A stretch of 64,000 nucleotides of DNA from Escherichia phage Ec_Makalu_002. The stretch lies in the sequence record MN709127.1; one strand, written 5' to 3'. The notes under the pieces were generated by a model. That model did not search any database. It saw nothing but the letters and a program-made list of their open reading frames with translations, and had not been told where the DNA came from. Position 1 is the stretch's first letter. The number at the start of each line of letters is the position of its first letter. The translations under genes and the position numbers were made by a program. Positions 3-53,587 of this stretch are shown here, one piece after another.

Positions 3-728
3 TTGCCAGAAGATATTGTGTTGAAACTTGCTGGTATATCAGAAGAGGCAAAGCGAAAACATGTATACACGGAAGAATCTAGACTGAAAATGTCGGAATC
101 ACAAAAACGTTTCATGGCTTCTCTTGATGAAGAAGAATTAAAACGTCGCCATAAGAAAAGAACTGATTCCGTTAAAGAACATTTTAGAAACTTGAGCGAT
201 GAAGAACGAGAAAGAAAGTATAAAGAACGTGGCAAGAAAATATCAAAGGCGTTAAGTAATAGATCAGAGGAAAAACTTAAATTACGAAGAGAAAGGCTTC
301 TACAAACTATAAACTCAAAGTCAGACGAAGAAAAACAAAGAATCGCCAAACTACTTTCAGATTCACAAAAACCGAAAGAAACATGGGGAAAATTTGATGA
401 GTTATATGCATTATGGATTGATCTGAATATGCCTGGTCAATATGTATTCAAGCGCGAGGCCATTAAACGTGGATACCCAGATAGGTCATATGATTACATC
501 GTTAAAGAAATGAAAAATAAGTACATAAAGGAGAATGGAAACGACATAATAAAATTAAATCCCAGAAAAAATTCTGGTGTCTGGGTATATTATGACGAAA
601 TATATAAGCTGTGGAAAGAAAATGGTATGCCTAGCGATAGAAAAACAAGAAAAATAGCGGTCGAGAATGGGTATCCCGACCAATGCTATCAAACTATAGT
701 AAAAGACTTTAAGAACTCACTTATTTAA
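3..728 (+). CDS. Homing-endonuclease-like protein, C-terminal part (5' end outside window)
   Basis: ORF open at window edge; basic NUMOD3-like repeats (TEESRLKMSESQK...) as in Seg-type endonucleases, plus two ~45-aa C-terminal repeats; catalytic N-terminus not in window. Confidence 0.45.
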   Translation: MPEDIVLKLAGISEEAKRKHVYTEESRLKMSESQKRFMASLDEEELKRRHKKRTDSVKEHFRNLSDEERERKYKERGKKISKALSNRSEEKLKLRRERLLQTINSKSDEEKQRIAKLLSDSQKPKETWGKFDELYALWIDLNMPGQYVFKREAIKRGYPDRSYDYIVKEMKNKYIKENGNDIIKLNPRKNSGVWVYYDEIYKLWKENGMPSDRKTRKIAVENGYPDQCYQTIVKDFKNSLI

Positions 729-1190
729 ACCTTTAAAACCGAACACTTTTTTTAATGTGTGTTCGGTTATGATTTTAAATTCCATATTATGTTTTTTACA
801 CAATGCTACTGCCGCTGCCCACTTTTCGGTATTTTTCGTCCACGTCCAAGCCTCCATCATATAACGCTGCTTTGTTTTAGTCGTTAATCGCTTTGGCTTT
901 TCTGGTGGTCTAGTCTCTTTGGCTGGCTTAATTTCCCATAAATGCTCTTTTCCATCATCAAACTTAACATAAACATCAACAAAATATCTGTGACGCTTAC
1001 CGTCTGTTGATGAATTGTAAGGAATTACAACGGTCTCAGATCCCCATTTAACCACATGAGGATTACGGTCACACCATTTAAAAACATGCAATTCCCAGCT
1101 TGAACGGTATGTGATTTTCCGTATATCCCCTTTATACTTTTCCTTATTCTCAGGAACATACTTGCCCTTATAAGTGTTAGATCCTCCCAT
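717..1190 (-). CDS. 4: Head completion protein gp4
   Basis: 157 aa, resembles T4 gp4 as recalled (YKGKY.PEN..KY.GD...I.YRSSWEL); ATG with GGAGG site; divergent from gene 53 as in T4. Confidence 0.7.
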   Translation of the reverse strand: MGGSNTYKGKYVPENKEKYKGDIRKITYRSSWELHVFKWCDRNPHVVKWGSETVVIPYNSSTDGKRHRYFVDVYVKFDDGKEHLWEIKPAKETRPPEKPKRLTTKTKQRYMMEAWTWTKNTEKWAAAVALCKKHNMEFKIITEHTLKKVFGFKGLNK

Positions 1191-1811: not shown

Positions 1812-3611
1812 ATGCTAATGTTTAATAACTCCGTTAAATGGTTTACCGGAATTGTGGAAAATAGGGAAGACCCGTTAATGTTAGGCCGAGTTCAGGTCAG
1901 GATTCATGGTATACATCCTTCGCTATCCGCACACGGTGACATTCAAGGTCTTCCAACCGAAGATCTATTATGGATTACGCCAGTGCAGGATATTACTAGC
2001 GCGGCGATATCAGGTATCGGACAAAGCCCTACTGGTATTGTTGAAGGTTCAATGGTATTTGGTTTGGCCTTAGATGAACGTTATTTAAACTGCGTTATTC
2101 TGGGTACTATTGCCGGACAATATACAGAGAAACCACTCACTACAGAAGGTTTTTGCGACCCTTCTGGTGCATACCCGCGCTATATTGGTAATGATGTTAA
2201 TATTCTTGCCCGTGGCGGCATTAACCCAGAAACCGGACAAACAACAAAACCTGATAGTGTCTATATTCGAGATGAAAACACTGGAGTTGCAGTAAATCCA
2301 GACGACGAGCCATTAGATCAAATTCCGGTTGATGATAATCCTGATTTTACAATAGAAAAAATGCTGCGGGGCGATGAGGGATATCGCGAGAAATGGTATC
2401 TTGATTCAGAAGGATATCCGACAATAGGCATCGGGCATTTGATCATTTATAAGAAAACCAGTGATCTGGGTATTATCAATAATGAACTTTCTAAGCTGGT
2501 AGGGCGTGAAGTTACAAACGGAAGACTTACCGCCGAAGAAGTTAGCAAAGTATTTGCTGACGATATAGAAAAAACTCGTCGTGATATGCGCAAACATCCA
2601 CGAATTGCACCTGTCTATAATAAATGTAATGCTTCTCGTCGTATGGCATTAGAAAATATGGCGTTTCAAATGGGTGTTGGTGGATTGGGTAAATTTAAGA
2701 ATAGTCTTGCTGCAATGCTGGCGGAAGAATGGAAACAAGCCTATGATGGATTACGTCAATCAGTATGGGCTAATCAAACTCCGGGACGCTCCAGCCGTGT
2801 TTCTAAAATTATTCTTACTGGCAACTTAGAATCCTATGGCGTAATTGCTCCTAAGAAAGAGGAATCTGTTTCCGATGATCCGCGAGCACGTTTGAGAAAT
2901 GCCCGTATTGCTGCCTATAAGACGCAGAGAGCAGAAGAAGACCCAGAAGCACCGTTTACCCCACAAGACACACGAATCATGTTTAAAGAGCCTAAGAGTT
3001 CGTATTCTGCAAGATATCCATATAACCACGTATACGAATCAGAGAGCGGTCATATTATCGAGATTGATGATACTCCTTCTCATGAGCGGTATCATCGTAA
3101 ACATCCTTCTGGTACATTTGAAGAAACCAGACCGGACGGAACGAGGGTAGAAAAGATTGAAGGTGATGATTATTTGATCGTTAAGCAAGGCCGCAAAGTC
3201 AACGTTAAAGGCAATCTGCAAGTTGTTGTTGAAGGTGACGCGCAAGTTTATTATATGGGTAATGTGATGCAAACCGTTGATGGTAACGTCACTGAATTTA
3301 TTCGTGGTAATGTTAATCAGACAGTTGAAGGTACAGCTAATATGCATGTTGTCGGTGATGTTACCGCGCAACTTGACGCTAATTTGACGGCTAACGTCAA
3401 GGGCAATGCTGAATTAATGATCGAGGGTAACACTACCGAGACAATTAAAGGTAACTATGATTTAACCGTTGAAGGTAATTTTAATATGACCGTCAATGGT
3501 ACTAAATCAGATCAGGTTAATGGTGACTGGTCCCGTAATTGTGGTGCAAGCGTTAAAGATATTGCATCCGGTACAGTTAAAATTGATGGTAGCCGTATTG
3601 ATCTTGGGTGA
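1812..3611 (+). CDS. 5: Baseplate hub and tail lysozyme gp5
   Basis: 599 aa; lysozyme-like segment (YLDSEGYPTIGIGHL) and C-terminal beta-helix repeats (VEGN/VKGN/VNGT). Confidence 0.9.
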   Translation: MLMFNNSVKWFTGIVENREDPLMLGRVQVRIHGIHPSLSAHGDIQGLPTEDLLWITPVQDITSAAISGIGQSPTGIVEGSMVFGLALDERYLNCVILGTIAGQYTEKPLTTEGFCDPSGAYPRYIGNDVNILARGGINPETGQTTKPDSVYIRDENTGVAVNPDDEPLDQIPVDDNPDFTIEKMLRGDEGYREKWYLDSEGYPTIGIGHLIIYKKTSDLGIINNELSKLVGREVTNGRLTAEEVSKVFADDIEKTRRDMRKHPRIAPVYNKCNASRRMALENMAFQMGVGGLGKFKNSLAAMLAEEWKQAYDGLRQSVWANQTPGRSSRVSKIILTGNLESYGVIAPKKEESVSDDPRARLRNARIAAYKTQRAEEDPEAPFTPQDTRIMFKEPKSSYSARYPYNHVYESESGHIIEIDDTPSHERYHRKHPSGTFEETRPDGTRVEKIEGDDYLIVKQGRKVNVKGNLQVVVEGDAQVYYMGNVMQTVDGNVTEFIRGNVNQTVEGTANMHVVGDVTAQLDANLTANVKGNAELMIEGNTTETIKGNYDLTVEGNFNMTVNGTKSDQVNGDWSRNCGASVKDIASGTVKIDGSRIDLG

Positions 3612-3619
3612 GGTAATTG

Positions 3620-4186
3620 ATGGTTGAAATTCTTCCTATGAGTTCAAAATTGGAGGATATCAGCGAGCGAGAAATCTTTGAGGTGGTGTTCTCTTATAAA
3701 GCAACGCCACCGGATGCAAATACCACATACACGATTAAAGAGTTTAAGATCAGCGAGTATCGCCCTAATAAGGGCGTTACCGTTGAAGAAACTAAAATAT
3801 CTGGTGAGTATCGGGATAGTTTTTCGCTTGGCGCGGATTCTCTTAAATATATAACGAAAGATCGAATTAAAAAATCTGCCGGAAGTTTTGATGATTTACC
3901 AGATCCAACTACAGCAGATCTATATTATTTTAACGCTCCTACACGTCTACAGGAGGTTTATACTTATAAAGTAACCCTAACCTATATCCAATCTGTTTCA
4001 GAGTCTTCTGGCGGTTCCGGTGAAGGAAATAGTGGTGGTTCTAACAGTCGAGAGGGTGCTGGTGAAACTAATCCGCCTCCGGTAGTAACCGAGCACACAA
4101 TAGAGAAAGTTTATACTCAAACCGTTTTTGGAAATTGGGATGTGTGGAGTAAACAGTTAAGAGATTATGTACATAGGGGTGTTTAA
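3620..4186 (+). CDS. gp5.1-like hypothetical protein
   Basis: ORF track starts at TTG 3617; ATG 3620 has GAGG site; position after gene 5 as in T4. Confidence 0.5.
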
Positions 4187-4479: not shown

Positions 4480-6380
4480 CAAAGCAAAAGATTACACAAA
4501 TTCCTGATATTTTTAATGCTGCTACATTCGATGAAATTAAAAGCGCATTAACCGACTGGATGAGAAACCAGGAAGAATTTAAAGATTTTGATTTTAATGG
4601 TGCTGGTATTAACGTATTGATGGACTTGCTCGCATATAACACTCTGTATATTCAGCAATTCGCCAACGCCGCGCTATATGAATCTTTTATCAGAACGGCA
4701 ATTAAGCGTAGTTCAGTTGTTCAAGCCGCGCAAGATTTAGGATATTTGCCAGCGAGTAAAACTAGTGCATCGACTACAATTATGTTGCATGTTTCCCATC
4801 CACGAAATCCGGCAAGTATTCGAATCCCACGAGGGACTAAATTTATTGCAAGTGTGGATCGCCAGACTTCTTACCCATTTGTTACTACAGAAGACGTTGT
4901 GAGCGTTTTAGGTTCAAATGGTTTATATACGCCTATGCTTAAAGTCGCACAAGGTCGTATTGTTCGTACAGAAATGTTATTTGATCCGAAGAAACAAATT
5001 CTGATCCGTGACCCTGATATTGACCGCGCTCAGGTTAAATTGTGGGTGGACGGTGCTGAATGGAAAGACTGGACACGAGAAAGTATTGTTAATGCAACTG
5101 GCGCAAGCAATATTTTCTATATGCGTGAAACCGTAGACGGACATACAGAAATTTTCTTTGGTGAAGGTGAATCAACCTTATCTGCGGCTGGCGGGGCGCT
5201 GGAAGCAAATTATATTGGTGGACTTAAGCCGTCAACTGGCGCTAATATTGTTATCGAATATATCAGCACTAAGGGCGCGGAAGCAAACGGTTCAGTTAAT
5301 TTCACATACGCGGATACCCTTGCATCTATCTCTATTGTTAAAATTATTGAGAATCCGACAAATGATCGTGATTATGTCGGTGCAGATGGTGGTGGTGATC
5401 CTGAATCAATCGAACGTATCCGTGAACTTGCTCCGGTAATGCGTGAATCTCAGCGTCGTTGTGTAACTGCTTCCGACTACGAGGCTTTTGTTTCTAGCCG
5501 TTTTGGTAGTATTGTTCAGGCTGTACAATGTTTCACCGACCGAGAAAAACCGGGTTATGCTTTTGTTGCTGTTAAGCCTAAATCTGGCTTGCGTTTGACA
5601 ACTGTTCAAAAAGAAGATATGCGGGATTATCTGGCAAAATATAACCTTGCCCCTATCACACCGAGCATCATTGACCCTAACTATCTGTATATTAAACAGA
5701 ATATTAAAGTTTCCTATTCAATCAATGACTTGTCAGAATCAGAGCAGTGGTTGCGCGGTGCGGTTATTGATCAGATTGATGCATATTATACCGACGAAGT
5801 GGAAATTTTTAACCAGACCTTTAGTAAGTCTAAAATGCTTGCGCGTATTGACAAAGCTGATGTATCTGTGATAGGTTCTAGTGCAGAAATCGAGATGGTG
5901 CGAGAGATCGACAACTTCTATAAAGCACCGATGGCTGGAATCAAGTTTTTAAACCAGTATAAGAGCGGAATCAAGTCTAGTTCATTCAACTTCGAAAAGG
6001 ACGACAAGCAATATCCGATCCATTATGTAAGTACAGAAATGAACAAAGAATCCGGTTTAGCTAAATTGCTGGTTGGACCTTTCCCTGTTGGTTCTGCAAT
6101 CGCTTTACCGCACTATTCCGGCACTGATTTTGATAAAGAGGTTATCGACGGTGCGGACCTATACTTTGAGGTTGGAGAGGTTCAGCATTATGACGACCTT
6201 ATTTCATGGGATCTGGGTAAACTGAATATCAATAGCGATCGCTTTACTGGTTCATATATTGAGTTGACAGCTAAACCGATTGCTGATAACATCTTTACTA
6301 AAGACGGTTCTTTGATCGTGTTTGAAAACGATCTCCGTCCTCAGTACACAACTATTAGTCTGGAGGCAATTGCTCAATGA
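4476..6380 (+). CDS. 6: Baseplate wedge protein gp6
   Basis: 634 aa; synteny and size (T4 gp6 ~660 aa). Confidence 0.8.
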
Positions 6381-9300
6381 TTAAAGCGCCTAGTGTAACT
6401 AGCTTGACAATAGAAAAATTGTCTGCTAATCAGGCGTATATCACATGGGATGACGTAGGCGAAAACTTCTTTTATTTTGTGGAGTTAGCCGAAACCAGAA
6501 CACGAGACGGGGAGATCATCCCCGTCGATGAGTTAAGCTGGGTAAACCTGGGATATACTGCCGAACAAAACTGGTTTGAGGATAAAAGCCTTTTTCCAGA
6601 ATATTATTACAAGTTTCGTGTAGCAGTAGCCGCAGAAGGATTTGAACAAAGTAAATGGGTTGAGACAGAAGAGTTTCAGACATTTAAAACAAACGCATAT
6701 AATTTTTCTATGATGCGAGAGTTCAACCTTGCAAACGAGTTTATAAAGGAAAAATTTACATACGATAATAGAGAGTATGTCAAGTTTAATACTGACCTGA
6801 TTCAAGCATCATTGATGAAGGAAGATTTTGTCTTTAGTCCTGAATATGCAAACATGACAAATATCTCAAACTACATTGTAGTTGATGAGAACTTTCATGA
6901 AATACAGGATCACATAGAAAAAGTTTGTATTGATATAAACCGCACTATGTTAGCGGAAATGAACGGTGTTTTGTACCTTTTCGAACGGTTCCAGCCGATC
7001 GTGAAAGTGTCAAATGATAAAGGTCAATCATGGAAAGCATACAAGGCTTTTAATGACCGTGTAGGCAATCCGGTTTCCCGTACATGCGTTTATCAGTCTA
7101 AAACCACTACTTACGTTTTAGGATATGATCGAATCTTTTACGGACGACAAGCGAGCGATACTCGATGGAGCGCGGACGATGTTCGATTTAGTGATGACAC
7201 GATCACTTTTGCAAAGGTTGGTGACGAGAACGATTTAGGCTTTGACGTTGAGGTCTTTGGTGTATTTTCCAGATTAACAGGGGACACCACAAAATACGCC
7301 GAAGCTATGGCGTGCAGTGATGACTATTTGTGGGTTGGTGCTAAAGATGTTATTCGCCGGATTCGTCTTAAGAATACTCCAGTTGATACCGTACAGGGTT
7401 CGCCTACGTTTGGCGAAAAAATATTCGATCCTGATGTTATCCGAGTAACAGGAAATGATAAAGCTGTCATTCAGAAAATGGATGTGATCGACGGTAAATT
7501 GCTTGTATTTGTTACTGGTGAAGTTAAACAGCGTTATCAAGATCCAACTAAACCAGAAAACGTTGTTCCGTCAGATGATGCGGGTGTATACTTAATAGGG
7601 AGTGATGGTCTGTCTTTTCAGAGAGTATTTGGCAACACTCCGCAGGAAAGGGAATATATTCAGCACGGGTTCAGTAATATGTCAACCAATGGTGATGAGG
7701 TGTTCATAAGCCATTATAATCATCACTTCGAAAGCATTTTACCTGATCCAGAAACTGCCGCAAAATATGAATTAGGCGAAGCTGTGAAATATTCTCAGGA
7801 GCCAACTTATCTAACTGATAAGAAAATACATCAAACTACTTTCAGAGCAAGTTATGATGATTTGCGTATTTGGGAGTTAGGACCGCAAGCGTATTATAAT
7901 GAGGCTGATTATACATGGATGCGTCGAAACGGTGTCCGTGTGTGGATCACAAATGATAATCGCCCGTTGGTTGTTTATCCAGAGGTTATCTATACTCAAG
8001 AAGTTGATACATCTGGCATTCTTGACCAAAACAGGGTTAACCGAGAGGTTTATGATAAGGGGACAGTGACCTGTTATCTTAACAATGTTAAATTTGAAGG
8101 GTTCAAACAATATGCATCCGGTGTAATGTTCCATAAAAACACGGGAGAGATCATTGGATTCTATCAATTTAATTATCGTGTTCGTGACCAAGTTGGTGTA
8201 TATTGGAAACCTACAAATGTAGCATTTGTTGCTGAATTACAAAATCAGGTTCGAGAGGTTCCCTGGGTTCCTGTTCATTATGACAGAGAGCAAGACCCAG
8301 ATTTACGGCCTTTACTGAATAAGATGACCCCGGATAGCTTTTTGCTTGAGAACGAAAATTTCAGAAAATTCTCTGAATATTATCTGCAATTCTTAAGTGA
8401 TGGTTCAGGAACATATTATAATAAACTAAAAAATCTGATTAAAAACAAATACCCACGCGAGCAAGATGCATATGAGTATCTTTGGCCAGAGATGAACAAA
8501 CGAAACATCTATGCAGATAAAAACAAGCGAGATGCGGTAGTAAGATTCTTCGAATCCCGCAAATCAGATTTTTATTCCACTAAGGGCGTGGAGGCTTCTT
8601 ATAAGTTCTTGTTTAAGTTACTTTATAATGAAGATGTGGAAATTGAGGTTGAATCGCAAGCCGGACTAGAGTATGATATTGTTGTTAGTTCAACGAACAT
8701 TGACGAGGATATCGTAGGTCGCACGATCTATACTCCAACCGGACGGGCTAACGTGACGTATCTTGAAAGGGAATATGAAGGTGGTCGCCTACGCTGGCGA
8801 GTAACCATTCATAACCTGATCGGGCGGTTCGAAGAAGGTCAAGTGATCAAATCAGAGAAAACAGCGTTTGAAGGGATGATCCTTGTTGGTGTACGTGGTA
8901 AAGAGTTGTTGAGTAGTTCAATCGACTATATCAACCGCTCACGAAGCCAATACACCATGAAGATTAAAAGTGCATTACCAGTTTCGCGCTATGCAAATGA
9001 TGTAATGCGATTCGTTCATCCTGTCGGCTTTGGGTTTATCGGTGTTACCCTGCTTACGATGTTCATTAACAGCGGGTTGAGCATGAAGCACACCGAGACT
9101 ATAATTCAATCTCTGAAAAATTATAAGTTTGACAGCGGATTGCCTAGCGTGTATCCTGATCGGGTGGCAGACCTTGACGTTGACGGAAACATTAAGAAAG
9201 ACCCGCTTACCGGAAAAGCATTATATTTGACTTCACCTTTAATCGGTGAAGAATTTCCGGTTCCTCCTGAATATGATCAGGAGAACAGCGAATTGTTCCA

Positions 9301-9463
9301 CGGACTTAAAGCAAGCGAACGAAGATTTGCAATGAGTCCACTGTTTGACCAGTCGGCGGTATCATTCTCTATGTTCCGTGAACTTGTAGATAAACGGTTG
9401 AAGGATAATATAGGGAATCCACGCGATCCGAAGAATCCGACACAGAGGAAAATTAATGGCTAA
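6377..9463 (+). CDS. 7: Baseplate wedge protein gp7
   Basis: 1028 aa; synteny and size (T4 gp7 ~1032 aa). Confidence 0.8.
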   Translation: MIKAPSVTSLTIEKLSANQAYITWDDVGENFFYFVELAETRTRDGEIIPVDELSWVNLGYTAEQNWFEDKSLFPEYYYKFRVAVAAEGFEQSKWVETEEFQTFKTNAYNFSMMREFNLANEFIKEKFTYDNREYVKFNTDLIQASLMKEDFVFSPEYANMTNISNYIVVDENFHEIQDHIEKVCIDINRTMLAEMNGVLYLFERFQPIVKVSNDKGQSWKAYKAFNDRVGNPVSRTCVYQSKTTTYVLGYDRIFYGRQASDTRWSADDVRFSDDTITFAKVGDENDLGFDVEVFGVFSRLTGDTTKYAEAMACSDDYLWVGAKDVIRRIRLKNTPVDTVQGSPTFGEKIFDPDVIRVTGNDKAVIQKMDVIDGKLLVFVTGEVKQRYQDPTKPENVVPSDDAGVYLIGSDGLSFQRVFGNTPQEREYIQHGFSNMSTNGDEVFISHYNHHFESILPDPETAAKYELGEAVKYSQEPTYLTDKKIHQTTFRASYDDLRIWELGPQAYYNEADYTWMRRNGVRVWITNDNRPLVVYPEVIYTQEVDTSGILDQNRVNREVYDKGTVTCYLNNVKFEGFKQYASGVMFHKNTGEIIGFYQFNYRVRDQVGVYWKPTNVAFVAELQNQVREVPWVPVHYDREQDPDLRPLLNKMTPDSFLLENENFRKFSEYYLQFLSDGSGTYYNKLKNLIKNKYPREQDAYEYLWPEMNKRNIYADKNKRDAVVRFFESRKSDFYSTKGVEASYKFLFKLLYNEDVEIEVESQAGLEYDIVVSSTNIDEDIVGRTIYTPTGRANVTYLEREYEGGRLRWRVTIHNLIGRFEEGQVIKSEKTAFEGMILVGVRGKELLSSSIDYINRSRSQYTMKIKSALPVSRYANDVMRFVHPVGFGFIGVTLLTMFINSGLSMKHTETIIQSLKNYKFDSGLPSVYPDRVADLDVDGNIKKDPLTGKALYLTSPLIGEEFPVPPEYDQENSELFHGLKASERRFAMSPLFDQSAVSFSMFRELVDKRLKDNIGNPRDPKNPTQRKING

Positions 9464-10451
9464 TGAAAATAGTGTGATCTATCGCTCAATCATTACTAGT
9501 AAATTCAGAACGGAAAAACTTCTGAATTTCTATAATTCTGTAGGCGATGGGGCAAATCAAATTACAATTTATGGAACGTTTGGACGTTCGGAGCCGTGGT
9601 CAGAAAACGAAAAAGAGGTGGGCTTTGCCCCACCTTATCCGACCGATTCAACGGCTGGTGTTGTTGACATGTGGACCCATATGATGGGGGCGGTTAAGAT
9701 TAATAAATCACTTCTTGATGCGGTTATCCCTCGTAAAGATTGGGGTGATACCGGACAGGATAACCCGCGCACATTCTTTATCAATGACATTGTTGTTGTC
9801 AACTCAGCACCATATAACCGAACTGATGTTGGTAGCGGCTGGATGGTGTATCGCGTAACCGATGTTCCTGATCGCGGTTACTGCTCGATTTCAAGCATTG
9901 ACGCTAAAGTCGAGTGTTTGAAGTTGGGCGGAAAGTGGACACCTACTCATGAATCAATCGCGCCACCTGTAGGAAAGGGCGATTCTATTGATATGGGTGA
10001 TGGGTATCGTTGGGAATATCTGTACACAATTCCACCTGATGCGGCGATCAACCGTTGCACCAATGAACATATTGTTGTACCGTTCCCCGATGAACTGCGA
10101 CAAGATCCGGCGCGCTGGGGCTACGACAATGTGATCACATGGTATAATGACTATAATCTGCTTTATCGGCTGAAAGTAGTAACTTTGCGTTTTCAGGCTT
10201 ATATGGACTCTGCGCAATTCCCAACTACCGCGTTAGTGGGTAACACTGGTTTCCGTCAGTTAAGCATTATCCTTAACCCATTGGAAAAGAAAGCACGCCC
10301 TAGCGATCCAGACGTTAAAGCGGTTCAAGATAAGTACCGTCCGCAAGACTTAGAGCCACACTCAGGAGAAATGATCTACATGGAAAACCGACAACCTATC
10401 GTTCGGTCATTAGATCAAACAGAACTTGTTTCTGTACTGTTTGAGTTCTAA
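9456..10451 (+). CDS. 8: Baseplate wedge protein gp8
   Basis: 331 aa; synteny and size (T4 gp8 334 aa). Confidence 0.8.
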   Translation: MANENSVIYRSIITSKFRTEKLLNFYNSVGDGANQITIYGTFGRSEPWSENEKEVGFAPPYPTDSTAGVVDMWTHMMGAVKINKSLLDAVIPRKDWGDTGQDNPRTFFINDIVVVNSAPYNRTDVGSGWMVYRVTDVPDRGYCSISSIDAKVECLKLGGKWTPTHESIAPPVGKGDSIDMGDGYRWEYLYTIPPDAAINRCTNEHIVVPFPDELRQDPARWGYDNVITWYNDYNLLYRLKVVTLRFQAYMDSAQFPTTALVGNTGFRQLSIILNPLEKKARPSDPDVKAVQDKYRPQDLEPHSGEMIYMENRQPIVRSLDQTELVSVLFEF

Positions 10452-10462
10452 GTGTATGATTT

Positions 10463-10496
10463 AAAAGCCAATTCGAGAGAGTTGGCTTTTTCTATT
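10463..10496 (+). terminator. Rho-independent terminator after gene 8
   Basis: Hairpin AAGCCAA/TTGGCTT followed by T-run. Confidence 0.6.
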
Positions 10497-10503
10497 TTGG
10501 GTG

Positions 10504-10531
10504 TTGACAATCTTGTCTGATAAGGTATAAT
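10504..10531 (+). promoter_or_regulatory. Sigma70-type promoter (TTGACA-16 bp-TATAAT)
   Basis: Consensus -35 and -10 hexamers; GGAGG site precedes ATG 10561. Confidence 0.6.
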
Positions 10532-10560
10532 GCTCACATCTAAACAACGGAGGATAAATT

Positions 10561-10818
10561 ATGGCACGTCGTAAATTTACAGATAATTGTGAAGCAATTC
10601 AGGTATCCCCTTGCGGTTGGGATGTGATCGCGAACGGTGAAAAGATCGGAGAGATCATCGATCATACTCATTCATCACTAGCCGATTACACCGATGAACT
10701 ATGGGAGGGTATCAACTTCATGAATGACACTAAACGATTCAAGACTATCGACGAAGCTATCTATTTTGTGTATAATCCAACTTTCGGTATGTGGACTGAT
10801 AGAAAATGGCACGCGTAA
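10561..10818 (+). CDS. Hypothetical protein (cassette gene 1)
   Basis: 85 aa; ATG with GGAGG site; first gene downstream of the sigma70-type promoter. Confidence 0.5.
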   Translation: MARRKFTDNCEAIQVSPCGWDVIANGEKIGEIIDHTHSSLADYTDELWEGINFMNDTKRFKTIDEAIYFVYNPTFGMWTDRKWHA

Positions 10819-11135
10819 ATATTAAACGGCATTATACAATGGGTAAACCAAAACATCCAATGCATAAAGTGTTTTGGGGCTTACATCTTCAAGAAAAATG
10901 GCATGATAACTATTGGTTTTGTGACCATGATAAGAAGTGGCATTCTCAAGATGAAGTTAATGCGATGATGGAACAGGGTATAAAGTTTAATTACTCTAAT
11001 TATGACCATAGCATTACTTGTATTCGAAAAATGAAACGGTTTATTCGAAAGAATCCACAATTTAAAAACTTTGTGTTCTTTATGTCTCATGTTTATTTGG
11101 GGCATAGCGTTACCGTAACAGCAAAGGTTAAATAA
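10806..11135 (+). CDS. Hypothetical Trp/His-rich protein (cassette gene 2)
   Basis: 109 aa; overlaps upstream ORF; stop overlaps next start (TAATG). Confidence 0.5.
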   Translation: MARVNIKRHYTMGKPKHPMHKVFWGLHLQEKWHDNYWFCDHDKKWHSQDEVNAMMEQGIKFNYSNYDHSITCIRKMKRFIRKNPQFKNFVFFMSHVYLGHSVTVTAKVK

Positions 11136-11974
11136 TGGCACGACTTTCCAAACAAGAACAAAAATTACACGATCGGGCAATGGAGCTAATCAATTCAGAC
11201 CGCCCATTGACATATGAAGAAAAGGAGTTTTGCTATAATAACTATCATGGAGATGGTCTAGGTGGTTCCGGTGCATTCTTTACCCCAGAGGGGCTTGCGT
11301 GGGATTTTACCATTGACGCACACTGCACCGGAAAAGTATTAGATTTGTGTGCTGGGATCGGTCGCTTATCTTTCTGTATGTTACATCGATGCAGACCAGA
11401 AAAGATCGTATGCGTCGAACTCAATCCAGAATTTTCGCGGATTGGCAAGCGACTATTACCGGAGGCAGAATGGATCACCAGCGATATATTCGAATTTGAG
11501 TCAAACGAAAAATTCGATGTGGTGATCAGCAATCCACCTTTCGGTAAAATCAATACAACCGACACAAAGGATGTATTTGAATACACAGGCGGCGAATTTG
11601 AATTTAAGGTTATGACGTTAGGCCAGAAGTTTTCCGATGTAGGTTATTTTATTGTTCCTTCTGGTTCCGCTGGGTTTGCGTATTCTGGTAGACCTTATTA
11701 TGATGGATCAGTGAAGTCTAATAAATATCTAAAGTGGAGCAAACAAACTGGTCTTGTGACTTATGCCGGATGTGGGATCGATACATCAATTTATCGCGAT
11801 GAATGGCACTGCACCAACGTTTTAACAGAAGTGGTTGAGGTTCGGTATTACGAGAAAGAAGCCGTAGAAGCGCCTAAATCGCGTCCTAACGAACAAATAG
11901 AAGAAAGTAAGGAGATTACCTTACCAGAACAGGAAAGCGAGTCTGGTACGCTCTCAGACTTGTTTGACATTTAA
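11135..11974 (+). CDS. SAM-dependent amino-methyltransferase, gamma-class-like (probable DNA N6-adenine MTase)
   Basis: Motifs FFTPEG (motif X-like), VLDLCAGIGRL (motif I), VVISNPPFG (motif IV NPPF) in that order. Confidence 0.6.
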   Translation: MARLSKQEQKLHDRAMELINSDRPLTYEEKEFCYNNYHGDGLGGSGAFFTPEGLAWDFTIDAHCTGKVLDLCAGIGRLSFCMLHRCRPEKIVCVELNPEFSRIGKRLLPEAEWITSDIFEFESNEKFDVVISNPPFGKINTTDTKDVFEYTGGEFEFKVMTLGQKFSDVGYFIVPSGSAGFAYSGRPYYDGSVKSNKYLKWSKQTGLVTYAGCGIDTSIYRDEWHCTNVLTEVVEVRYYEKEAVEAPKSRPNEQIEESKEITLPEQESESGTLSDLFDI

Positions 11975-11976
11975 TT

Positions 11977-12005
11977 AAAAGCCGTCCTTGTGGGCGGCTT
12001 TTTTG
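11977..12005 (+). terminator. Rho-independent terminator after methyltransferase gene
   Basis: Hairpin AAGCCG...CGGCTT followed by TTTTT. Confidence 0.6.
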
Positions 12006-12014
12006 TATGTATTT

Positions 12015-12022
12015 TATAAATA
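12015..12022 (+). promoter_or_regulatory. T4-type late promoter TATAAATA upstream of gene 9
   Basis: Exact TATAAATA about 28 nt upstream of ATG 12050. Confidence 0.6.
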
Positions 12023-12049
12023 ATACATCATAACATGAGGAATTAAACA

Positions 12050-12904
12050 ATGGCACAAGTTCCAAAGAAAAGAATAGACACAGGTACTGTCGGCAATCCA
12101 TCGACTGGCGATATCTTATATGATGGCGGTAATAAAATTAACGATAACTTTGATTCAATATATGACGCATTTGCTGATCAGCGGTTTAAAGACGTAGACC
12201 ACGGCGTGGGAAGAATGGTTATTCATGCAACCGGATACTATCAGAAACATCCACGTCAAAGCTACGCTGGTTCCGCTGTTGAGATTGGGAGTCTACACGA
12301 TATCGATACAACTCAAGGCGCACTTATTGCTATTCTACCTAAAGCAAAGGTCGGCGAGGGTGTTGTATTCATAAATAGTAACGGTAGCCTTTCAACGACT
12401 ACACCGCTCAATATTCGAACTCAAGCAGGTGATTCTATTAGCGGGTATTCCGGTGATGCTACAATAACACAACCATTTTCAAAAGTCACTGTTTGGTGTA
12501 CTGCCGTTGAAGGTAGTCGCGTAACGTGGCGATTGGGTATCGAAAGTATGTTTACCGATACAACAACGCCATTGGATAAAACAGTTAACGTAACTGGAGT
12601 AGCAACAAACGTTGCTATTGCCGCAAAAACAGAATACGTTTCCATCAAATTATTAACTACCGCTAGCAATACATCCGGTTCAAAAATGCGTTCAAGTGAA
12701 ACGCTACTGATGATTGATTCTAAAGCCGGAAAAGTTTATGCGACGGAATATGCAGTTTTGCAGAAGACAGAAGATGAACTATACACGGTTCGTTATTTCA
12801 TCGGTTCCGGCGATAAAGTATATGCAGAGTATAAGGCTACTGGCGAAAATATTCGTTTAGCAGTTAAAGCCGTAGACACTATTAAAATCGGGGTTGCTAC
12901 ATGA
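12050..12904 (+). CDS. 9: Baseplate wedge / long tail fiber socket protein gp9
   Basis: 284 aa; synteny and size (T4 gp9 288 aa). Confidence 0.8.
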   Translation: MAQVPKKRIDTGTVGNPSTGDILYDGGNKINDNFDSIYDAFADQRFKDVDHGVGRMVIHATGYYQKHPRQSYAGSAVEIGSLHDIDTTQGALIAILPKAKVGEGVVFINSNGSLSTTTPLNIRTQAGDSISGYSGDATITQPFSKVTVWCTAVEGSRVTWRLGIESMFTDTTTPLDKTVNVTGVATNVAIAAKTEYVSIKLLTTASNTSGSKMRSSETLLMIDSKAGKVYATEYAVLQKTEDELYTVRYFIGSGDKVYAEYKATGENIRLAVKAVDTIKIGVAT

Positions 12905-20414: not shown

Positions 20415-21155
20415 ATGTTTAACAACACTCTTTTTGCTCGCCTTGAATCGCAAAAGGATTATGAGAATACACGACAAACAGAGATTCTCAATCCTTATGT
20501 GAACTTTCACAAATATACAAATACTCAGACGTTAGCCGACGTTATGGTCGCCGAAGCTATTCAGATGCGAGGTGTAGAATTATATTACATCCCTCGTGAA
20601 TTTGTCAAACCAGATATGATCTTTGGTGAGGATGTTCAAAGCAAATTTACTAAAGCATGGAAATTTGCGGCTTATATTAACTCATTTGATGGGTATGAAG
20701 GAGCGGGTAATTTCTTCTCTAGTTTCGGGTATCAAGCTAATGATGAATTAACCATAACCATAAATCCAAATTTATTCAAACATCAAGTAGATAACCAAGA
20801 GCCTAAATCCGGTGATTTATTTTACATTCCTATGAGCAATGATTTATTTGAAATCTCATATGTAGAGCCATATCAGCCGTTTTTTCAGGCTGGCAAAAAT
20901 GCCATGCGTAAAATTATTGCAGAGAAATTCGTGTATAGCGGTGAGGAATTGCGACCAGAATTACAACGCAATGAGGGAATTAATGTTGATGAGTTTGCGG
21001 ATCTGGATCTTGCACCGATCACTAATCTGGACGGGTTAACAGATATCAACTTAGATCAGTACAAAGAAGATAAGCAATTCAGAAGCGAAGGACAAGATTT
21101 TATTGACCCATTTGACCCAATTAATGGCACTGGTTCACCTTTTGCTAATTTTTGA
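20415..21155 (+). CDS. 14: Neck protein gp14
   Basis: 246 aa; synteny and size (T4 gp14 256 aa). Confidence 0.8.
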
Positions 21156-37327: not shown

Positions 37328-37496
37328 ACTTCACCTCATACATTCATAAACACAACAACGAATAGGACAGTAACAGTTATTAAAGCCATTTTCAACCCCA
37401 TATTCATAATATTTTCTTCGCCTCACGATGACAGTAGCATGTCGATGCGTGCCATTATAGGCATCTAAATCGCTCTGTCAAGCACAAAAACAAAAA

Positions 37497-37516
37497 AGCC
37501 ACCCCGAAGGATGGCT
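37497..37516 (-). terminator. Minus-strand terminator after hoc-like gene
   Basis: Hairpin AGCCATCCTTCGGGGTGGCT followed by T-run on minus strand; sister of the 36337 hairpin. Confidence 0.5.
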
Positions 37517-37527
37517 GATAGATTTCA

Positions 37528-39068: not shown

Positions 39069-39794
39069 TTACTTGAGTGTGTGGAATTGGCTATGTTTAG
39101 TCTCTCGCACCTTGACAGACCCATCGCGTTTGATATAATAGATCAGTGACTTGAGGGTGTCGTGTACATACGCGTGCGGGAAACGCTCTGGATACTTCTT
39201 CCAATCTGGAGTATTAACGATCCAGTCGAAAATCCACCACGGGCAGGAGTAGTAACCACGACCGCCACCGATCAAGCAAATGGTCGGACGGAAACCAGTA
39301 AGATCACAAAATGAATCAGTGTCATGTGCAGGAGAACGATGCTCTGCTTCGTCAGAGAAAATGTTTGCTACCGGAGATTCCACTTTAACTTCCGGTGCTT
39401 CTTCAACATCTGACTTAACTTCTTCGACCACTGGTTCAACTGCTGGAGATTCTTCTTTTGTTTCTTCAATGACGATCTCAGGTTCTTTCATTGCTTCAAC
39501 CAGAGACGGATCAACTTCGTCGAATACCACTTTATCATCTGCGGTATCTGCTGCCAGAATAAGGTCGTTAATACTGGTTCCTTCTGCCGGAGTTTCTTCT
39601 TCCATTTCGGAAGCCAGTTTAGTTAATTCGGTTTCTACGAACTCGATCATGTTCTCTAGTGATAAAGTCTTTTTGACCTTGATATCAAATTGTTTTGCAT
39701 AGTCTGCTAATTCTGTTTTAGCTGTTTTCTGTGCTTCTTTGTCGTCGGACGCCGCAATAGCGCGGAGTTCTTCGAAATATTCTTTATCAAACAT
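39069..39794 (-). CDS. Acidic hypothetical protein, possibly Inh-like
   Basis: 241 aa, acidic central region; placed next to hoc as inh is in T4; sequence identity not verified. Confidence 0.4.
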   Translation of the reverse strand: MFDKEYFEELRAIAASDDKEAQKTAKTELADYAKQFDIKVKKTLSLENMIEFVETELTKLASEMEEETPAEGTSINDLILAADTADDKVVFDEVDPSLVEAMKEPEIVIEETKEESPAVEPVVEEVKSDVEEAPEVKVESPVANIFSDEAEHRSPAHDTDSFCDLTGFRPTICLIGGGRGYYSCPWWIFDWIVNTPDWKKYPERFPHAYVHDTLKSLIYYIKRDGSVKVRETKHSQFHTLK

Positions 39795-53304: not shown

Positions 53305-53340
53305 TTGATACTCCTTAGTAGTTCGTTTCGGTATGGGTGT

Positions 53341-53369: not shown

Positions 53370-53375
53370 CAACTT

Positions 53376-53555: not shown

Positions 53556-53587
53556 GTTTGATTCTCCTTTCGTTTCGGTATGTGTGC

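What the first reader, a model, noticed from the sequence alone, without database searches (positions are those of the whole stretch)
10463..12006. Sigma70-promoter three-gene cassette (two small proteins plus a methyltransferase) inserted between baseplate genes 8 and 9
In T4 genes 8 and 9 are adjacent. Here 1.5 kb separates them, bounded on both sides by hairpin + T-run terminators (10463-10496, 11977-12005). The insert has its own TTGACA-16 bp-TATAAT promoter (10504-10531), whereas neighbouring genes sit behind TATAAATA late promoters. It carries a GGAGG ribosome site and three tightly coupled ORFs that all begin Met-Ala-Arg (10561, 10806, 11135; the last junction is TAATG). This is the architecture of an independently expressed accessory island placed inside the late structural operon. 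The two small proteins (85 and 109 aa, the second Trp/His-rich) have no motif I recognise.
Basis: partly seen in the sequence, partly recalled or inferred. Interest (0 to 1): 0.7.

Follow-up and report, generated by a model that had tools for sequence, protein, structure and literature searches.

The report
Early methyltransferase cassette with clamp-binding tail
An RB49-like phage carries a separately switched early gene cassette between two baseplate genes, and its methyltransferase ends in the same short peptide that anchors the phage's own DNA polymerase to the sliding clamp, which suggests an enzyme that rides the replication machinery to mark new phage DNA.

Summary
The window is a Krischvirus (RB49-like, 99.7% to Ec_Makalu_003). 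Between gp8 and gp9 lie a terminator, a perfect TTGACA-16-TATAAT promoter, GGAGG, three coupled ORFs, a second terminator and a TATAAATA late promoter. The architecture is not new: GEC-3S annotation and Nolan 2006 mark these signals, and it fits the published PeSL class (stem-loop plus sigma-70 early promoter). All 58 Krischvirus records have the cassette. Six other T4-like genera have gp8 and gp9 adjacent.

The cassette is composite. The methyltransferase is the stable resident: metagenomic relatives carry it alone, or behind a different ORF. ORF1-ORF2 is a swappable ORFan pair shared at about 68% with unrelated rV5-like phages. Their function stays unknown. The shared Met-Ala-Arg start is coincidence or inheritance.

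The new point concerns the methyltransferase. It has a disordered acidic linker ending TLSDLFDI; the phage's own DNA polymerase gp43 ends SLTDLFDI, the gp45 sliding-clamp-binding peptide. Across the family the tail follows the clamp type. T4-like phages have gp45-type tails. Phages with no clamp found nearby end in QL[S/D]LF, the bacterial beta-clamp motif (29 of 38 loci, against 1 of about 2,350 other ORFs). Chromosomal copies have no tail. The likeliest reading is a clamp-tethered DNA adenine methyltransferase. This is inferred, not shown.

The parts
9456..10451 (+). gp8 baseplate wedge subunit (left neighbour, late gene)
   Evidence: Pfam Phage-Gp8 2.2e-143; phrog_977
10463..10496 (+). Intrinsic terminator that ends the gp6-7-8 late transcript and forms the stem-loop half of a PeSL-type element. 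Its left arm TTAAAAGCC (10461-10469) and right arm GGCTTTTT (10484-10491) recur in the downstream terminator.
   Evidence: 12 bp stem, dG -15.6, z -4.45. Annotated as a terminator in GEC-3S and Makalu_003 and by TransTerm in the Nolan 2006 supplement. A terminator is kept at this position in L015 and L018.
10504..10531 (+). Sigma-70 consensus early promoter: TTGACA, 16 bp spacer, TATAAT. The expected start is near 10538.
   Evidence: 12/12 match, unique within 10 kb. The -35 and -10 hexamers are conserved in RB49, GEC-3S and L015; Phi1 has TTTACA and L018 has GATACT at -10. Annotated as a promoter in GEC-3S. The leader resembles the PeSL leaders at 53-60 kb in the same window.
10549..10553 (+). 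GGAGG Shine-Dalgarno sequence for ORF1
   Evidence: Read directly; annotated as an RBS in Makalu_003
10561..10818 (+). ORF1: 85 aa, acidic (pI 5.0), function unknown. First half of a swappable ORFan pair.
   Evidence: phrog_16603, unknown function. No Pfam, NCBIfam or PADLOC hit. Found only in Krischvirus and in rV5-like FV3/HMD-6, at 68-69%. Broken by an 11 bp deletion in the RB49 reference genome.
10806..11135 (+). ORF2: 109 aa, basic (pI 9.9), Trp/His-rich, function unknown. Second half of the ORFan pair. Its 5' two-thirds (about 10786-11020) is a mosaic patch that differs between Krischvirus lineages.
   Evidence: phrog_12630, unknown function. 66-69% identical in many Vequintavirus genomes. 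An exhaustive profile search added only two marginal relatives. AF2 pLDDT 66 with no fold match. dN/dS 0.17-0.21. Mosaic shown.
11135..11974 (+). Class I SAM-dependent amino-methyltransferase, 279 aa. Motifs run in gamma order: FFTP (aa 48-51, nt 11276-11287), VLDLCAGIG (aa 68-76, nt 11336-11362), NPPF (aa 133-136, nt 11531-11542). The catalytic core is aa 1-240.
   Evidence: Pfam MTS 36.5 bits (cut-off 23) and Eco57I 28.3 bits (cut-off 25.3). phrog_3820 at 4e-115. PADLOC mad2 at 8e-16 and Type II MTase at 7e-9. AF2 core pLDDT above 90. M.TaqI catalytic domain superposes at rmsd 3.4-4.0 A. dN/dS 0.05.
11867..11947 (+). Disordered acidic, Ser/Pro-rich linker of the methyltransferase (aa 245-271)
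   Evidence: pLDDT below 50 for residues 245-278. Length and sequence vary among homologues, and chromosomal copies lack it.
11948..11971 (+). C-terminal peptide TLSDLFDI: proposed gp45 sliding-clamp-binding epitope
   Evidence: gp43 of RB49 and of Makalu_003 ends SLTDLFDI: 6 of 8 identical, the other two are S/T swaps, and the last 5 are identical. It is the only ORF besides gp43 with at least 4/8 matches among 440 ORFs.
11977..12005 (+). Intrinsic terminator that closes the cassette. Its arms TTAAAAGCC (11975-11983) and GGCTTTTT (11996-12003) repeat those of the upstream terminator.
   Evidence: 11 bp stem, dG -17.7, z -4.89. Annotated in GEC-3S and Makalu_003 and in the Nolan supplement.
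12015..12022 (+). TATAAATA late promoter that restarts late transcription for gp9-gp12
   Evidence: The same motif follows the terminator in L015 and L018 and sits in the plain gp8/gp9 gap of T2, JS10 and Acj9.
12050..12904 (+). gp9 baseplate wedge / tail-fibre connector (right neighbour, late gene)
   Evidence: Pfam T4_gp9_10_N 1.4e-40

Best explanation
The region is an early transcription unit of the PeSL type, sitting at a natural operon boundary of the late baseplate cluster.

Late transcripts from gp6-7-8 stop at the first hairpin. Host sigma-70 RNA polymerase starts at the consensus promoter soon after infection and makes one mRNA for ORF1, ORF2 and the methyltransferase, which are translationally coupled. 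The second hairpin stops that mRNA. The TATAAATA promoter then restarts late transcription for gp9 onward.

The resident gene is the methyltransferase. It is most likely an N6-adenine DNA methyltransferase, and it is additional to the phage's Dam. A flexible acidic linker carries a C-terminal peptide that copies the clamp-binding end of the phage's own DNA polymerase. This peptide would dock the enzyme on the gp45 sliding clamp, so that it travels with, or just behind, the replisome. It could then methylate newly made, cytosine-unmodified phage DNA fast enough to keep up with replication. That would protect progeny genomes from host restriction.

ORF1-ORF2 is a separately acquired pair of small early proteins, one acidic and one basic. 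The pair occupies the slot between promoter and methyltransferase, does not depend on the methyltransferase, and was exchanged with rV5-like coliphages at a breakpoint next to the promoter.

Shown: the anatomy, conservation, mosaicism, selection, the tail identity and the family-wide link between tail type and clamp type. Inferred: early timing, DNA as the substrate, adenine as the target, physical clamp binding, an anti-restriction role, and any function for ORF1 and ORF2.
For: Anatomy and its statistics.

PeSL class: Arbiol 2010 (PMC2839356) describes sigma-70 consensus promoters with adjacent stem-loops in RB49 and phi1. One subclass has the stem-loop upstream of the -35. 'A few' lie in the virion module next to genes of unknown function. 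The same window holds many classic PeSLs with a similar leader, and one more of the same design at 37454-37520(-).

Lineage restriction: 58 Krischvirus records carry the cassette, and 58 records have gp8 at 95% identity or more. Other genera have gp8 and gp9 adjacent. In T2, JS10 and Acj9 the gap is a terminator plus TATAAATA.

Modularity: L015-L017 have gp8-MTase-gp9. L018 has gp8, a 154-aa ORF, the MTase, then gp9. Both keep the same terminator/promoter/terminator/late-promoter layout. FV3 carries ORF1-ORF2 without the methyltransferase. Its DNA homology (74.7% over 609 bp) starts just after the -10 and ends at the ORF2 stop, and FV3 has its own TTGACA promoter upstream. There is a mosaic patch in ORF2.

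Enzyme class: FFTP, VLDLCAGIG and NPPF occur in gamma order. Pfam Eco57I and MTS are above their cut-offs. PADLOC DNA methyltransferase hits. The fold matches the M.TaqI catalytic domain. In class C phages the homologue sits in the replication module beside other DNA methyltransferases.

Clamp tail:
- gp43 ends SLTDLFDI and the methyltransferase ends TLSDLFDI. This match is unique among 440 ORFs.
- The linker is disordered.
- Published work says gp43, gp33 and gp55 bind gp45 through highly similar, interchangeable, hydrophobic-acidic C-termini on unstructured variable linkers (PMC2988020; PMC9690074).
- Only 14 nt are shared at the DNA level, with synonymous differences and unrelated flanks, so selection acts on the peptide.
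- Across the family, T4-like loci that carry gp45 have (D/N)LFTF(R/T)IE or ATFDFRIE tails beside gp43 tails SLN(D/T)LFGD(D)W or SLSDLFDF.
- 29 of 38 loci with no gp45-type clamp found nearby end in Q[LAMP][SD][LI]F plus 2-7 residues, against 1 of about 2,350 other ORFs. This matches the beta-clamp consensus QL[SD]LF and its working variants QHDLF and QPDLF (PMC12867686).
- Enterobacterial chromosomal copies have no tail.
Against: No experiment bears on this locus. There is no transcript map here, no methylome and no binding assay.

Fold and sequence do not separate DNA from RNA methyltransferases. The top PDB hits are METTL5-like putative RNA methyltransferases, and RsmC, KsgA and Erm also match. 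The protein is small and has no separate DNA-recognition domain.

The class B tail LFTFRIE only loosely resembles the gp43 tail of the same phage.

Some T4-like phages that have a gp45 clamp carry tail-less copies (Aeromonas 65 and AS-zj type; GAP32 has only a short end), and the roughly 30 kb enterobacterial elements have none. The tail is therefore not obligatory.

Absence of a clamp gene in class C phages was checked only within 10 kb on each side and only with gp45 queries.

The terminator before the promoter may leak, so late read-through expression is not excluded.
Confidence: 0.62

Rival explanations
1. The methyltransferase acts on RNA or protein, not DNA. Candidates are rRNA or tRNA m6A/m2G, or glutamine methylation of release factors or ribosomal proteins. 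It would be an early host-takeover enzyme that retunes translation, and the C-terminal peptide would serve some other purpose.
For: The best PDB sequence and fold hits are PH1948 and Ta1320 (METTL5-like), RsmC, KsgA and Erm. The top Pfam hit is MTS. NCBIfam lists PrmC, L3 Gln-MTase and RsmC first. Several GenBank records call it PrmC, and the RB49 note says rRNA guanine-N2 MTase. The protein is small with no obvious target-recognition domain.
Against: All NCBIfam hits are far below cut-off: PrmC 35.6 against 199, RsmC 27 against 295. Pfam Eco57I (DNA m6A) passes its cut-off. The PADLOC DNA methyltransferase hits are stronger (8e-16). A tail that matches sliding-clamp ligands in two different clamp systems makes sense only for an enzyme working on DNA. 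Relatives sit in replication modules among DNA methyltransferases.
Confidence: 0.13
2. The tail match is a by-product of recombination and not a working clamp anchor. The 3' end of gp43 (which PeSLs flank in RB49 and phi1) or a terminator-proximal segment was copied onto the methyltransferase gene during PeSL-mediated shuffling, and it is carried along neutrally.
For: gp43 is bordered by PeSLs in RB49 and phi1. The last 14 nt of the two genes are identical. This region of the genome is demonstrably mosaic.
Against: Identity stops after 14 nt, the sequences on both sides are unrelated, and the Leu codons differ synonymously. The motif is kept while the linker varies freely in length and sequence, including in L015 and L018 at 64-65% protein identity. 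Distant relatives independently carry the beta-clamp motif at the same position. dN/dS over the gene is 0.05.
Confidence: 0.07
3. The three genes form one functional system. For example, ORF1 and ORF2 might regulate or direct the methyltransferase as controller or specificity subunits, or the set might be an anti-defence operon acting together.
For: Tight translational coupling (13 nt overlap, TAATG) and a single promoter and terminator. The pair is one acidic and one basic protein. All 58 Krischvirus records keep the three together.
Against: L015-L017 have the methyltransferase with neither small ORF, and L018 has an unrelated 154-aa ORF instead. FV3 and other rV5-like phages have ORF1-ORF2 or ORF2 without the methyltransferase. 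RB43, KP27 and Aeromonas 65 have unrelated ORFs upstream of their copies. ORF1 is frameshifted in the RB49 reference genome.
Confidence: 0.08
4. The promoter is not used, or is minor. The cassette would then be expressed mainly late, by read-through from the gp6-8 late transcript, as part of the structural operon.
For: The cassette is co-oriented with the late genes, whereas early genes normally run the other way ('w' against 'c' in Nolan 2006). Intrinsic terminators are rarely complete. Promoter-like sites in general are no more frequent than chance here.
Against: This is a 12/12 consensus match with a conserved -35 and -10 across lineages that differ by 20% in gp8. A strong terminator sits directly upstream. 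PeSL promoters tested in reporters were extremely strong. The RB49 early consensus was validated by 5' mapping (cited).
Confidence: 0.08

Closest known systems
PeSL cassettes (promoter-early stem-loop plus ORFan) of RB49 and phi1; Arbiol et al. 2010, Comeau et al. 2014
   Same: Same phage genus. A sigma-70 consensus promoter sits beside a stem-loop terminator, directly upstream of an SD and an ORFan. The leader resembles other PeSLs in the window. The gene content behind the promoter varies between relatives, as expected for modular shuffling. The paper states that a few PeSLs lie in the virion module.
   Different: The stem-loop is a full rho-independent terminator upstream of the -35, not the common G/C stem between -35 and -10. 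The unit holds three genes, one with a recognisable enzyme fold. The accessible text of those papers does not name this locus. Mini-circle formation was not tested here.
Phage orphan DNA adenine methyltransferases (T4 Dam and others), used to evade host restriction
   Same: A phage-encoded SAM-dependent amino-methyltransferase with an NPPF catalytic motif and no partner restriction enzyme, in a phage with unmodified cytosines.
   Different: It is unrelated to T4 Dam in class (gamma motif order, not alpha), and RB49 carries Dam as well. The target sequence is unknown. It has a C-terminal clamp-type tail, which was not found described for phage methyltransferases in the searchable literature.
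gp45 sliding-clamp ligands of T4-type phages (C-termini of gp43, gp33, gp55)
   Same: An extreme C-terminal, hydrophobic and acidic short peptide on an unstructured linker of variable length, nearly identical to the gp43 tail of the same phage.
   Different: The carrier is a methyltransferase, not a polymerase or a transcription factor. Binding has not been demonstrated.
Eukaryotic Dnmt1-PCNA coupling, and bacterial QL[SD]LF beta-clamp ligands (Pol II/IV/V, MutS, Hda, MuC)
   Same: The same logic: a DNA-modifying or DNA-processing enzyme is recruited to newly replicated DNA through a short clamp-binding motif. Distant relatives of this methyltransferase carry near-consensus QL[SD]LF.
   Different: No homology to Dnmt1, which makes C5-cytosine methylation. 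The phage versions use a C-terminal tail. The link is by analogy and motif only.
M.TaqI / Eco57I-type gamma-class N6-adenine DNA methyltransferases, and the MADS Mad2 methyltransferase
   Same: The same motif order and catalytic-domain fold. Pfam Eco57I is above its cut-off and the PADLOC mad2 hit is 8e-16.
   Different: It lacks the large C-terminal target-recognition domain of M.TaqI. Identity is about 16%. It matches METTL5-like RNA methyltransferases about as well.

Membership tests
PeSL regulatory cassette (Arbiol 2010) | [quoted passage not shown] | tested here: met
   TTGACA-16-TATAAT, 12/12
PeSL regulatory cassette (Arbiol 2010) | Adjacent stable stem-loop that can act as terminator or attenuator (five positional subclasses, one upstream of the -35) | tested here: met
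   12 bp stem plus T-run, 8 nt upstream of the -35, dG -15.6, z -4.45; subclass described
PeSL regulatory cassette (Arbiol 2010) | Intergenic position, after an upstream stop codon and before the SD and start of a gene of unknown function | tested here: met
   gp8 stop at 10451, GGAGG at 10549, ORF1 ATG at 10561; ORF1 has no known function
PeSL regulatory cassette (Arbiol 2010) | Sequence repeated elsewhere in the genome, giving homology for recombination | tested here: inconclusive
   The hexamers and part of the leader (gcNcacatc..aaac) are shared with PeSLs at 53-60 kb, and the design recurs at 37454-37520(-). No long identical repeat was found. The flanking terminators share 8-9 nt arms.
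PeSL regulatory cassette (Arbiol 2010) | [quoted passage not shown] | tested here: inconclusive
   The content between the promoter and the methyltransferase differs among relatives, and the FV3 homology begins at the promoter edge. Mini-circles cannot be tested in silico.
Gamma-class N6-adenine DNA methyltransferase | Motif order X (FxTP), then I (SAM-binding Gly-rich loop), then IV ((D/N)PP(Y/F)) | tested here: met
   FFTP at 48-51, VLDLCAGIG at 68-76, NPPF at 133-136; all invariant across 32 homologues
Gamma-class N6-adenine DNA methyltransferase | Scores above a curated DNA methyltransferase family threshold | tested here: inconclusive
   Pfam Eco57I 28.3 bits against a cut-off of 25.3 (pass). 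N6_Mtase 16.3 against 20.4 (fail). The generic MTS family also passes.
Gamma-class N6-adenine DNA methyltransferase | Separate target-recognition domain that contacts DNA | tested here: not met
   The model is a single Rossmann domain with an N-terminal helical extension. M.TaqI aligns only over its catalytic domain.
Gamma-class N6-adenine DNA methyltransferase | Methylates adenine in DNA at a defined sequence | not testable with these tools
   Needs a methylome or an enzyme assay
PrmC/HemK release-factor glutamine methyltransferase (the name used in several GenBank records) | Reaches the curated equivalog score | tested here: not met
   TIGR03534 35.6 bits against a cut-off of 199.1; hemK_fam 16.9 against 115.5
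   NF007023 27 bits against a cut-off of 295
T4-type gp45 sliding-clamp ligand (C-terminal epitope) | Short hydrophobic and acidic motif at the extreme C-terminus | tested here: met
   ...TLSDLFDI followed by the stop codon; definition
T4-type gp45 sliding-clamp ligand (C-terminal epitope) | Highly similar to the gp43, gp33 or gp55 termini of the same phage | tested here: met
   gp43 SLTDLFDI (6/8 identical, last 5 identical); gp55 ...SLDQFYEIEN; gp33 ...NTLDI. Only gp43 and the methyltransferase score at least 4/8 among 440 ORFs.
T4-type gp45 sliding-clamp ligand (C-terminal epitope) | Joined to the folded body by an unstructured linker of variable sequence and length | tested here: met
   pLDDT below 50 for 245-278; tails after the core run 19-49 residues (linker plus terminal motif), with differing sequences
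T4-type gp45 sliding-clamp ligand (C-terminal epitope) | Physical binding to gp45 | not testable with these tools
   No complex prediction or assay was available
Bacterial beta-clamp ligand (QL[SD]LF motif), applied to the distant relatives and not to the window protein | Near-consensus QL[SD]LF in an exposed terminal segment | tested here: met
   29 of 38 class C homologues, against 1 of about 2,350 other ORFs in the same loci; consensus and tolerated variants

The most novel reading that the evidence does not exclude
This methyltransferase belongs to an unrecognised, widespread family of phage DNA methyltransferases that are physically tethered to the sliding clamp of whichever replisome copies the phage. 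T4-type phages that bring their own clamp use a gp45-type C-terminal peptide. Phages that appear to use the host replisome use a QL[SD]LF beta-clamp motif. Non-replicating chromosomal copies have no tail. This would be a prokaryotic and viral counterpart of Dnmt1-PCNA coupling. It would let a small enzyme with no DNA-recognition domain methylate DNA processively at the fork, and the tail would be a portable module swapped to match the clamp.
Probability: 0.55. Interest if true: 0.75.

Novelty: new variant of a known kind. Interest (0 to 1): 0.58.

Why it matters
The cassette architecture is a textbook example of how T4-type phages slot early accessory genes into conserved late modules, and that part is known.

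The tail is what matters. If it binds the clamp, three things follow.
1. It explains how a fast-replicating phage with unmodified cytosines keeps its DNA fully methylated.
2. It adds a DNA-modifying enzyme to the short list of gp45 and beta-clamp clients.
3. It gives a simple sequence rule (gp45-type tail or QL[SD]LF) for telling from sequence alone which replisome a phage uses.

It also corrects database names. Records variously call this protein PrmC, an rRNA methylase, a radical SAM protein or hypothetical. It flags a methyltransferase that the study of KP15/KP27 DNA modification did not consider. Every step can be tested with standard binding assays and methylome sequencing.

Tried and rejected
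- **ORF1 and ORF2 against family libraries.** Pfam, NCBIfam and PADLOC gave nothing. PHROGs gave only unknown-function families.
- **Deep searches for the small ORFs.** The word-indexed search of 5.8 billion proteins found only Krischvirus and Vequintavirus-type sequences. An exhaustive HMMER profile search of 1.84 billion representatives added two marginal relatives at E about 1e-4.
- **Zinc-site idea for ORF2.** C39, H41, H68 and C72 looked like a possible site, but these residues are not kept in the two distant relatives. Dropped.
- **ORF2 structure.** AF2 gave pLDDT 66 and pTM 0.54. Foldseek against PDB gave no match (best E 0.6, TM below 0.25).
- **A conserved partner ORF upstream of the methyltransferase.** The ORFs upstream in RB43, KP27 and Aeromonas 65 are unrelated to ORF2 and to each other, apart from RB43 with KP27.
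- **Met-Ala-Arg as a shared signal.** Rejected.
- **Fold and PDB profile search to settle DNA against RNA substrate.** Not discriminating.
- **Tail copied as a DNA block from gp43.** Rejected: only 14 nt are shared.
- **R-M partner next to the chromosomal homologues.** No obvious one. They sit in islands of small unknown genes, with an HNH gene 5 kb away in Citrobacter.
- **C-terminal '..AA' of class C tails as a degron.** Many ORFs in those phages end in AA because of ATGA-coupled stops and embedded SD sequences. Not pursued.
- **Literature.** No paper in the searchable library combines DNA methyltransferase, DnaN and clamp-binding motif. The original RB49 genome paper (Desplats 2002) is not held.


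Full report
**What the window is**

The region 10400-12060 is 99.7% identical to Escherichia phage Ec_Makalu_003. It is 92-96% identical to GEC-3S, RB49, Phi1, JSE and about 50 other Krischvirus genomes. The flanking genes are gp7 (6377-9463), gp8 (9456-10451), gp9 (12050-12904), gp10 and gp11.

**Check of the observation**

- Both hairpins fold much better than dinucleotide shuffles: -15.6 kcal/mol (z -4.45) and -17.7 kcal/mol (z -4.89).
- The promoter is a 12/12 match and the only one in 10 kb. Promoter-like sites in general are no more common than chance (22 found, 26.7 expected), so the evidence is the perfect match in the right place, not a count.
- The ORFs are real genes. dN/dS is 0.05 for the methyltransferase and 0.17-0.21 for ORF2. 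ORF1 is 68% conserved with a phage of another family.
- The Met-Ala-Arg starts are real but carry no common meaning.

**Is it lineage-specific?**

Yes. The number of phage records with gp8 at 95% identity or more (58) equals the number carrying the cassette (58). In T2, KP15, a Tulanevirus, JS10, Acj9 and Vibrio phage PVA8, gp8 and gp9 are 9-128 bp apart. In T2, JS10 and Acj9 that gap is itself a terminator followed by TATAAATA. So the cassette sits exactly at a pre-existing operon boundary. Its two flanking terminators share their arm sequences (TTAAAAGCC ... GGCTTTTT).

**Already known**

- The GEC-3S RefSeq record annotates the terminator, the -35, the -10 and the second terminator at these positions.
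- Makalu_003 annotates both terminators.
- The Nolan 2006 supplement lists TransTerm terminators '8-->RB49ORF140w' and 'RB49ORF143w-->9', and its Pfam table lists RB49ORF143w as a weak 'Methyltransferase small domain' hit.
- Arbiol et al. 2010 defined PeSLs in RB49 and phi1. These are sigma-70 consensus promoters with an adjacent stem-loop, in about 50 copies, mostly in hyperplastic regions. A few lie in the virion module next to genes of unknown function. One subclass has the stem-loop upstream of the -35. Reporter assays showed strong promoter and terminator activity.
- The window contains a run of classic PeSLs at 53-60 kb on the minus strand, with a leader similar to the one here, and a second element of the same design at 37454-37520(-).

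The architecture is thus a member of a known kind.

**The cassette is composite**

1. ORF1 and ORF2 have adjacent homologues in the rV5-like phage FV3 (Vequintavirus) at 69% identity each, with no methyltransferase there. The DNA homology (74.7% over 609 bp) runs from window 10534, just after the -10, to the ORF2 stop. FV3 has its own TTGACA-17-TATTCT promoter just upstream.
2. Metagenomic Krischvirus-like phages with gp8 at 80-88% identity carry the methyltransferase alone between gp8 and gp9 (L015-L017), or behind an unrelated 154-aa ORF (L018). All keep the order terminator, promoter, genes, terminator, TATAAATA.
3. Within Krischvirus, the window and Phi1 are 98-100% identical through gp8, the promoter, ORF1 and gp9. 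They are only 52-83% identical over about 250 bp of ORF2, and 85-98% in the methyltransferase.
4. The RB49 reference genome has an 11 bp deletion that breaks ORF1.

So the methyltransferase is the long-term resident, and the slot between the promoter and the methyltransferase takes up ORFans. This is the behaviour described for PeSL modules.

**The small proteins**

Nothing informative was found. There are no family hits, only PHROGs of unknown function, and no relatives outside the two coliphage groups apart from two marginal hits. The ORF2 model has modest confidence and no structural neighbour. ORF1 is acidic (pI 5.0) and ORF2 is basic (pI 9.9). The two always travel together, which hints that they act as a pair. 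That is a guess.

**The methyltransferase**

It has the motifs FFTP, VLDLCAGIG and NPPF in gamma-class order, and all are invariant in 32 homologues. Pfam MTS and Eco57I pass their cut-offs. PrmC and RsmC models are far below theirs, so the 'PrmC' and 'rRNA methylase' names in GenBank are not supported. PADLOC gives DNA methyltransferase hits (mad2 at 8e-16).

The AF2 model has a confident single-domain core. It superposes best on the M.TaqI catalytic domain, but METTL5-like, KsgA and Erm RNA methyltransferases score similarly. Fold alone cannot name the substrate. RB49 also encodes a separate Dam.

Homologues at 42-50% identity occur in RB43, Slopekvirus, GAP32, Aeromonas and Sinorhizobium phages. 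In RB43 and KP27 the gene lies between the gp41 helicase and the gp61 primase. The closest relatives outside the genus, at 54-61%, are in enterobacterial chromosomal islands.

**The tail: the new finding**

The phage copies carry an extension that the chromosomal copies lack. In the window it is a 27-residue disordered acidic linker (pLDDT below 50) ending TLSDLFDI. The DNA polymerase gp43 of RB49 and of Makalu_003 ends SLTDLFDI. Among 440 ORFs in 158 kb of Krischvirus sequence, only gp43 and the methyltransferase match this 8-mer at 4 or more positions.

Published work states that gp43, gp33 and gp55 bind gp45 through highly similar, interchangeable, hydrophobic-acidic C-termini held on unstructured variable linkers. 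It also reports that the RB69 clamp was crystallised with the last 11 residues of its polymerase.

At the DNA level only the last 14 nt are shared. The Leu codons differ synonymously and the flanks are unrelated, so this is not a recently copied block.

**Family-wide test**

A scan of viral contigs gave 80 loci, and the tails were extracted by script.
- **Class A** (Krischvirus and relatives): (S/T)L(S/T)DLFDI, SLSMFDI or TLDFVDFSEI.
- **Class B** (RB43, Slopekvirus and other T4-like phages, with gp45 in the same locus): (D/N)LFTF(R/T)IE or ATFDFRIE. The gp43 tails in the same loci are SLN(D/T)LFGD(D)W or SLSDLFDF. This resemblance is looser.
- **Class C** (38 loci, 40-45% identity, GC 52-65% with one locus at 37%, contigs of 5-90 kb): variable Ala/Pro/Glu-rich linkers ending QLSLFDAA, QLDLFGMAA, QASLFGDAA, QADLFGVAA, QMDLFGEAA and similar.

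The pattern Q[LAMVIP][SDN][LIM][FW] within the last 12 residues occurs in 29 of the 38 class C methyltransferases. It occurs in 1 of about 2,350 other ORFs of the same loci. The bacterial beta-clamp consensus is QL[SD]LF, and QHDLF and QPDLF are shown to work in phage Mu MuC.

In the two class C loci examined (L091 and L098), the gene lies in the replication module. It sits next to a DnaB-like helicase or a primase-polymerase, often among other DNA methyltransferases, and L091 also has a terminase downstream. No gp45-type clamp was found within 10 kb.

About 30 loci have no tail. These are the enterobacterial elements of roughly 30 kb, GAP32, and the Aeromonas AS-zj type.

**Reading**

The tail motif follows the type of clamp available to the replicon. 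That pattern is hard to explain unless the tail is a clamp anchor, and a clamp anchor in turn argues that the substrate is DNA. The proposed mechanism has four steps: early synthesis, docking on gp45 through the polymerase-like peptide, travel with or behind the fork, and methylation of new DNA, most likely at adenine N6. The result would be protection from restriction in a phage whose cytosines are normally unmodified.

Weak points:
- There is no experiment of any kind on this locus.
- There is no distinct DNA-recognition domain.
- The class B match to gp43 is loose.
- Some T4-like phages have tail-less copies.
- The clamp check in class C loci is incomplete.

I found no description of clamp-tethered phage methyltransferases in the searchable literature. 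That library is incomplete, so this is not proof of novelty.

**Verdict**

The architecture is already known as the PeSL class and is already annotated. The methyltransferase tail and its covariation with clamp type across the family look new and are directly testable.

Noticed in passing
window 717-1190 (-), promoter 1231-1204 (-): A 157-aa ORF (MGGSNTYKGK...) lies on the opposite strand among late baseplate genes, behind an 11/12 sigma-70-like promoter. Its homologue in L015 (228-710, -) carries Pfam Tn7_TnsA-like_N. It may be another early-type, endonuclease-like accessory gene set into the late region.
   Followed up: partly
window 53300-60450 (-): A hyperplastic region with at least nine classic PeSLs. 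Each has TTGACA, a GGGG..CCCC stem, TATAAT or a close variant, and a shared leader gcacacataccgaaacga...aggagaatcaaa before a small ORF.
   Followed up: partly
window 37454-37520 (-): A second element of the same design as the one after gp8: a terminator hairpin, a T-run, then TTGACA-16-TATAAT (12/12).
   Followed up: no
L002 (RB49 NC_005066) 1662-1908; window about 10708: The RB49 reference genome has an 11 bp deletion that splits ORF1 into RB49p140 and RB49p141. Either ORF1 is dispensable in the laboratory strain or this is a sequencing error.
   Followed up: partly
Literature: PMC13390438; phages SAP (OZ034687) and TB34 (OX001802): Krischvirus SAP is reported to have fully modified, glucosylated cytosines with no known pathway genes, while TB34 (99.96% identical) has plain cytosines. 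Both carry this cassette, so the cassette by its presence cannot explain the difference. The puzzle remains open.
   Followed up: no
L019 (T2) 2803-2865; L022 (JS10) 2797-2924; L023 (Acj9) 2803-2860: In genera without the cassette, the short gp8/gp9 gap is itself a terminator followed by TATAAATA. The junction is an old operon boundary, and recombination between the cassette's two similar terminators would restore that state.
   Followed up: partly
L098 9429-12580; L091 7891-10852: In class C phages the homologue sits in a cluster of two or three different DNA methyltransferase genes (phrog_359, phrog_116, phrog_799) inside the replication module.
   Followed up: partly
L033-L054 (IMG/VR contigs of about 20-36 kb); L008-L011 (Citrobacter freundii): The tail-less enterobacterial copies sit at the very end of prophage-like contigs of roughly 30 kb, or at the edge of a chromosomal island of small unknown genes beside yliH and dacC. 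The identical protein is seen on 887 contigs. The nature of this element was not worked out.
   Followed up: no
window 20579-20608 (-) and 39112-39139 (+): Two more 12/12 sigma-70 consensus matches. The first appears to lie inside a coding region, and neither has an adjacent hairpin in the flanks shown. Their status is unknown.
   Followed up: no
L006 (KP27) 3001-3777; PMC5219037: The KP15/KP27 study of an unknown DNA modification reported finding only Dam and Dcm. It did not consider this methyltransferase (KP27_035), which has a class B tail.
   Followed up: partly
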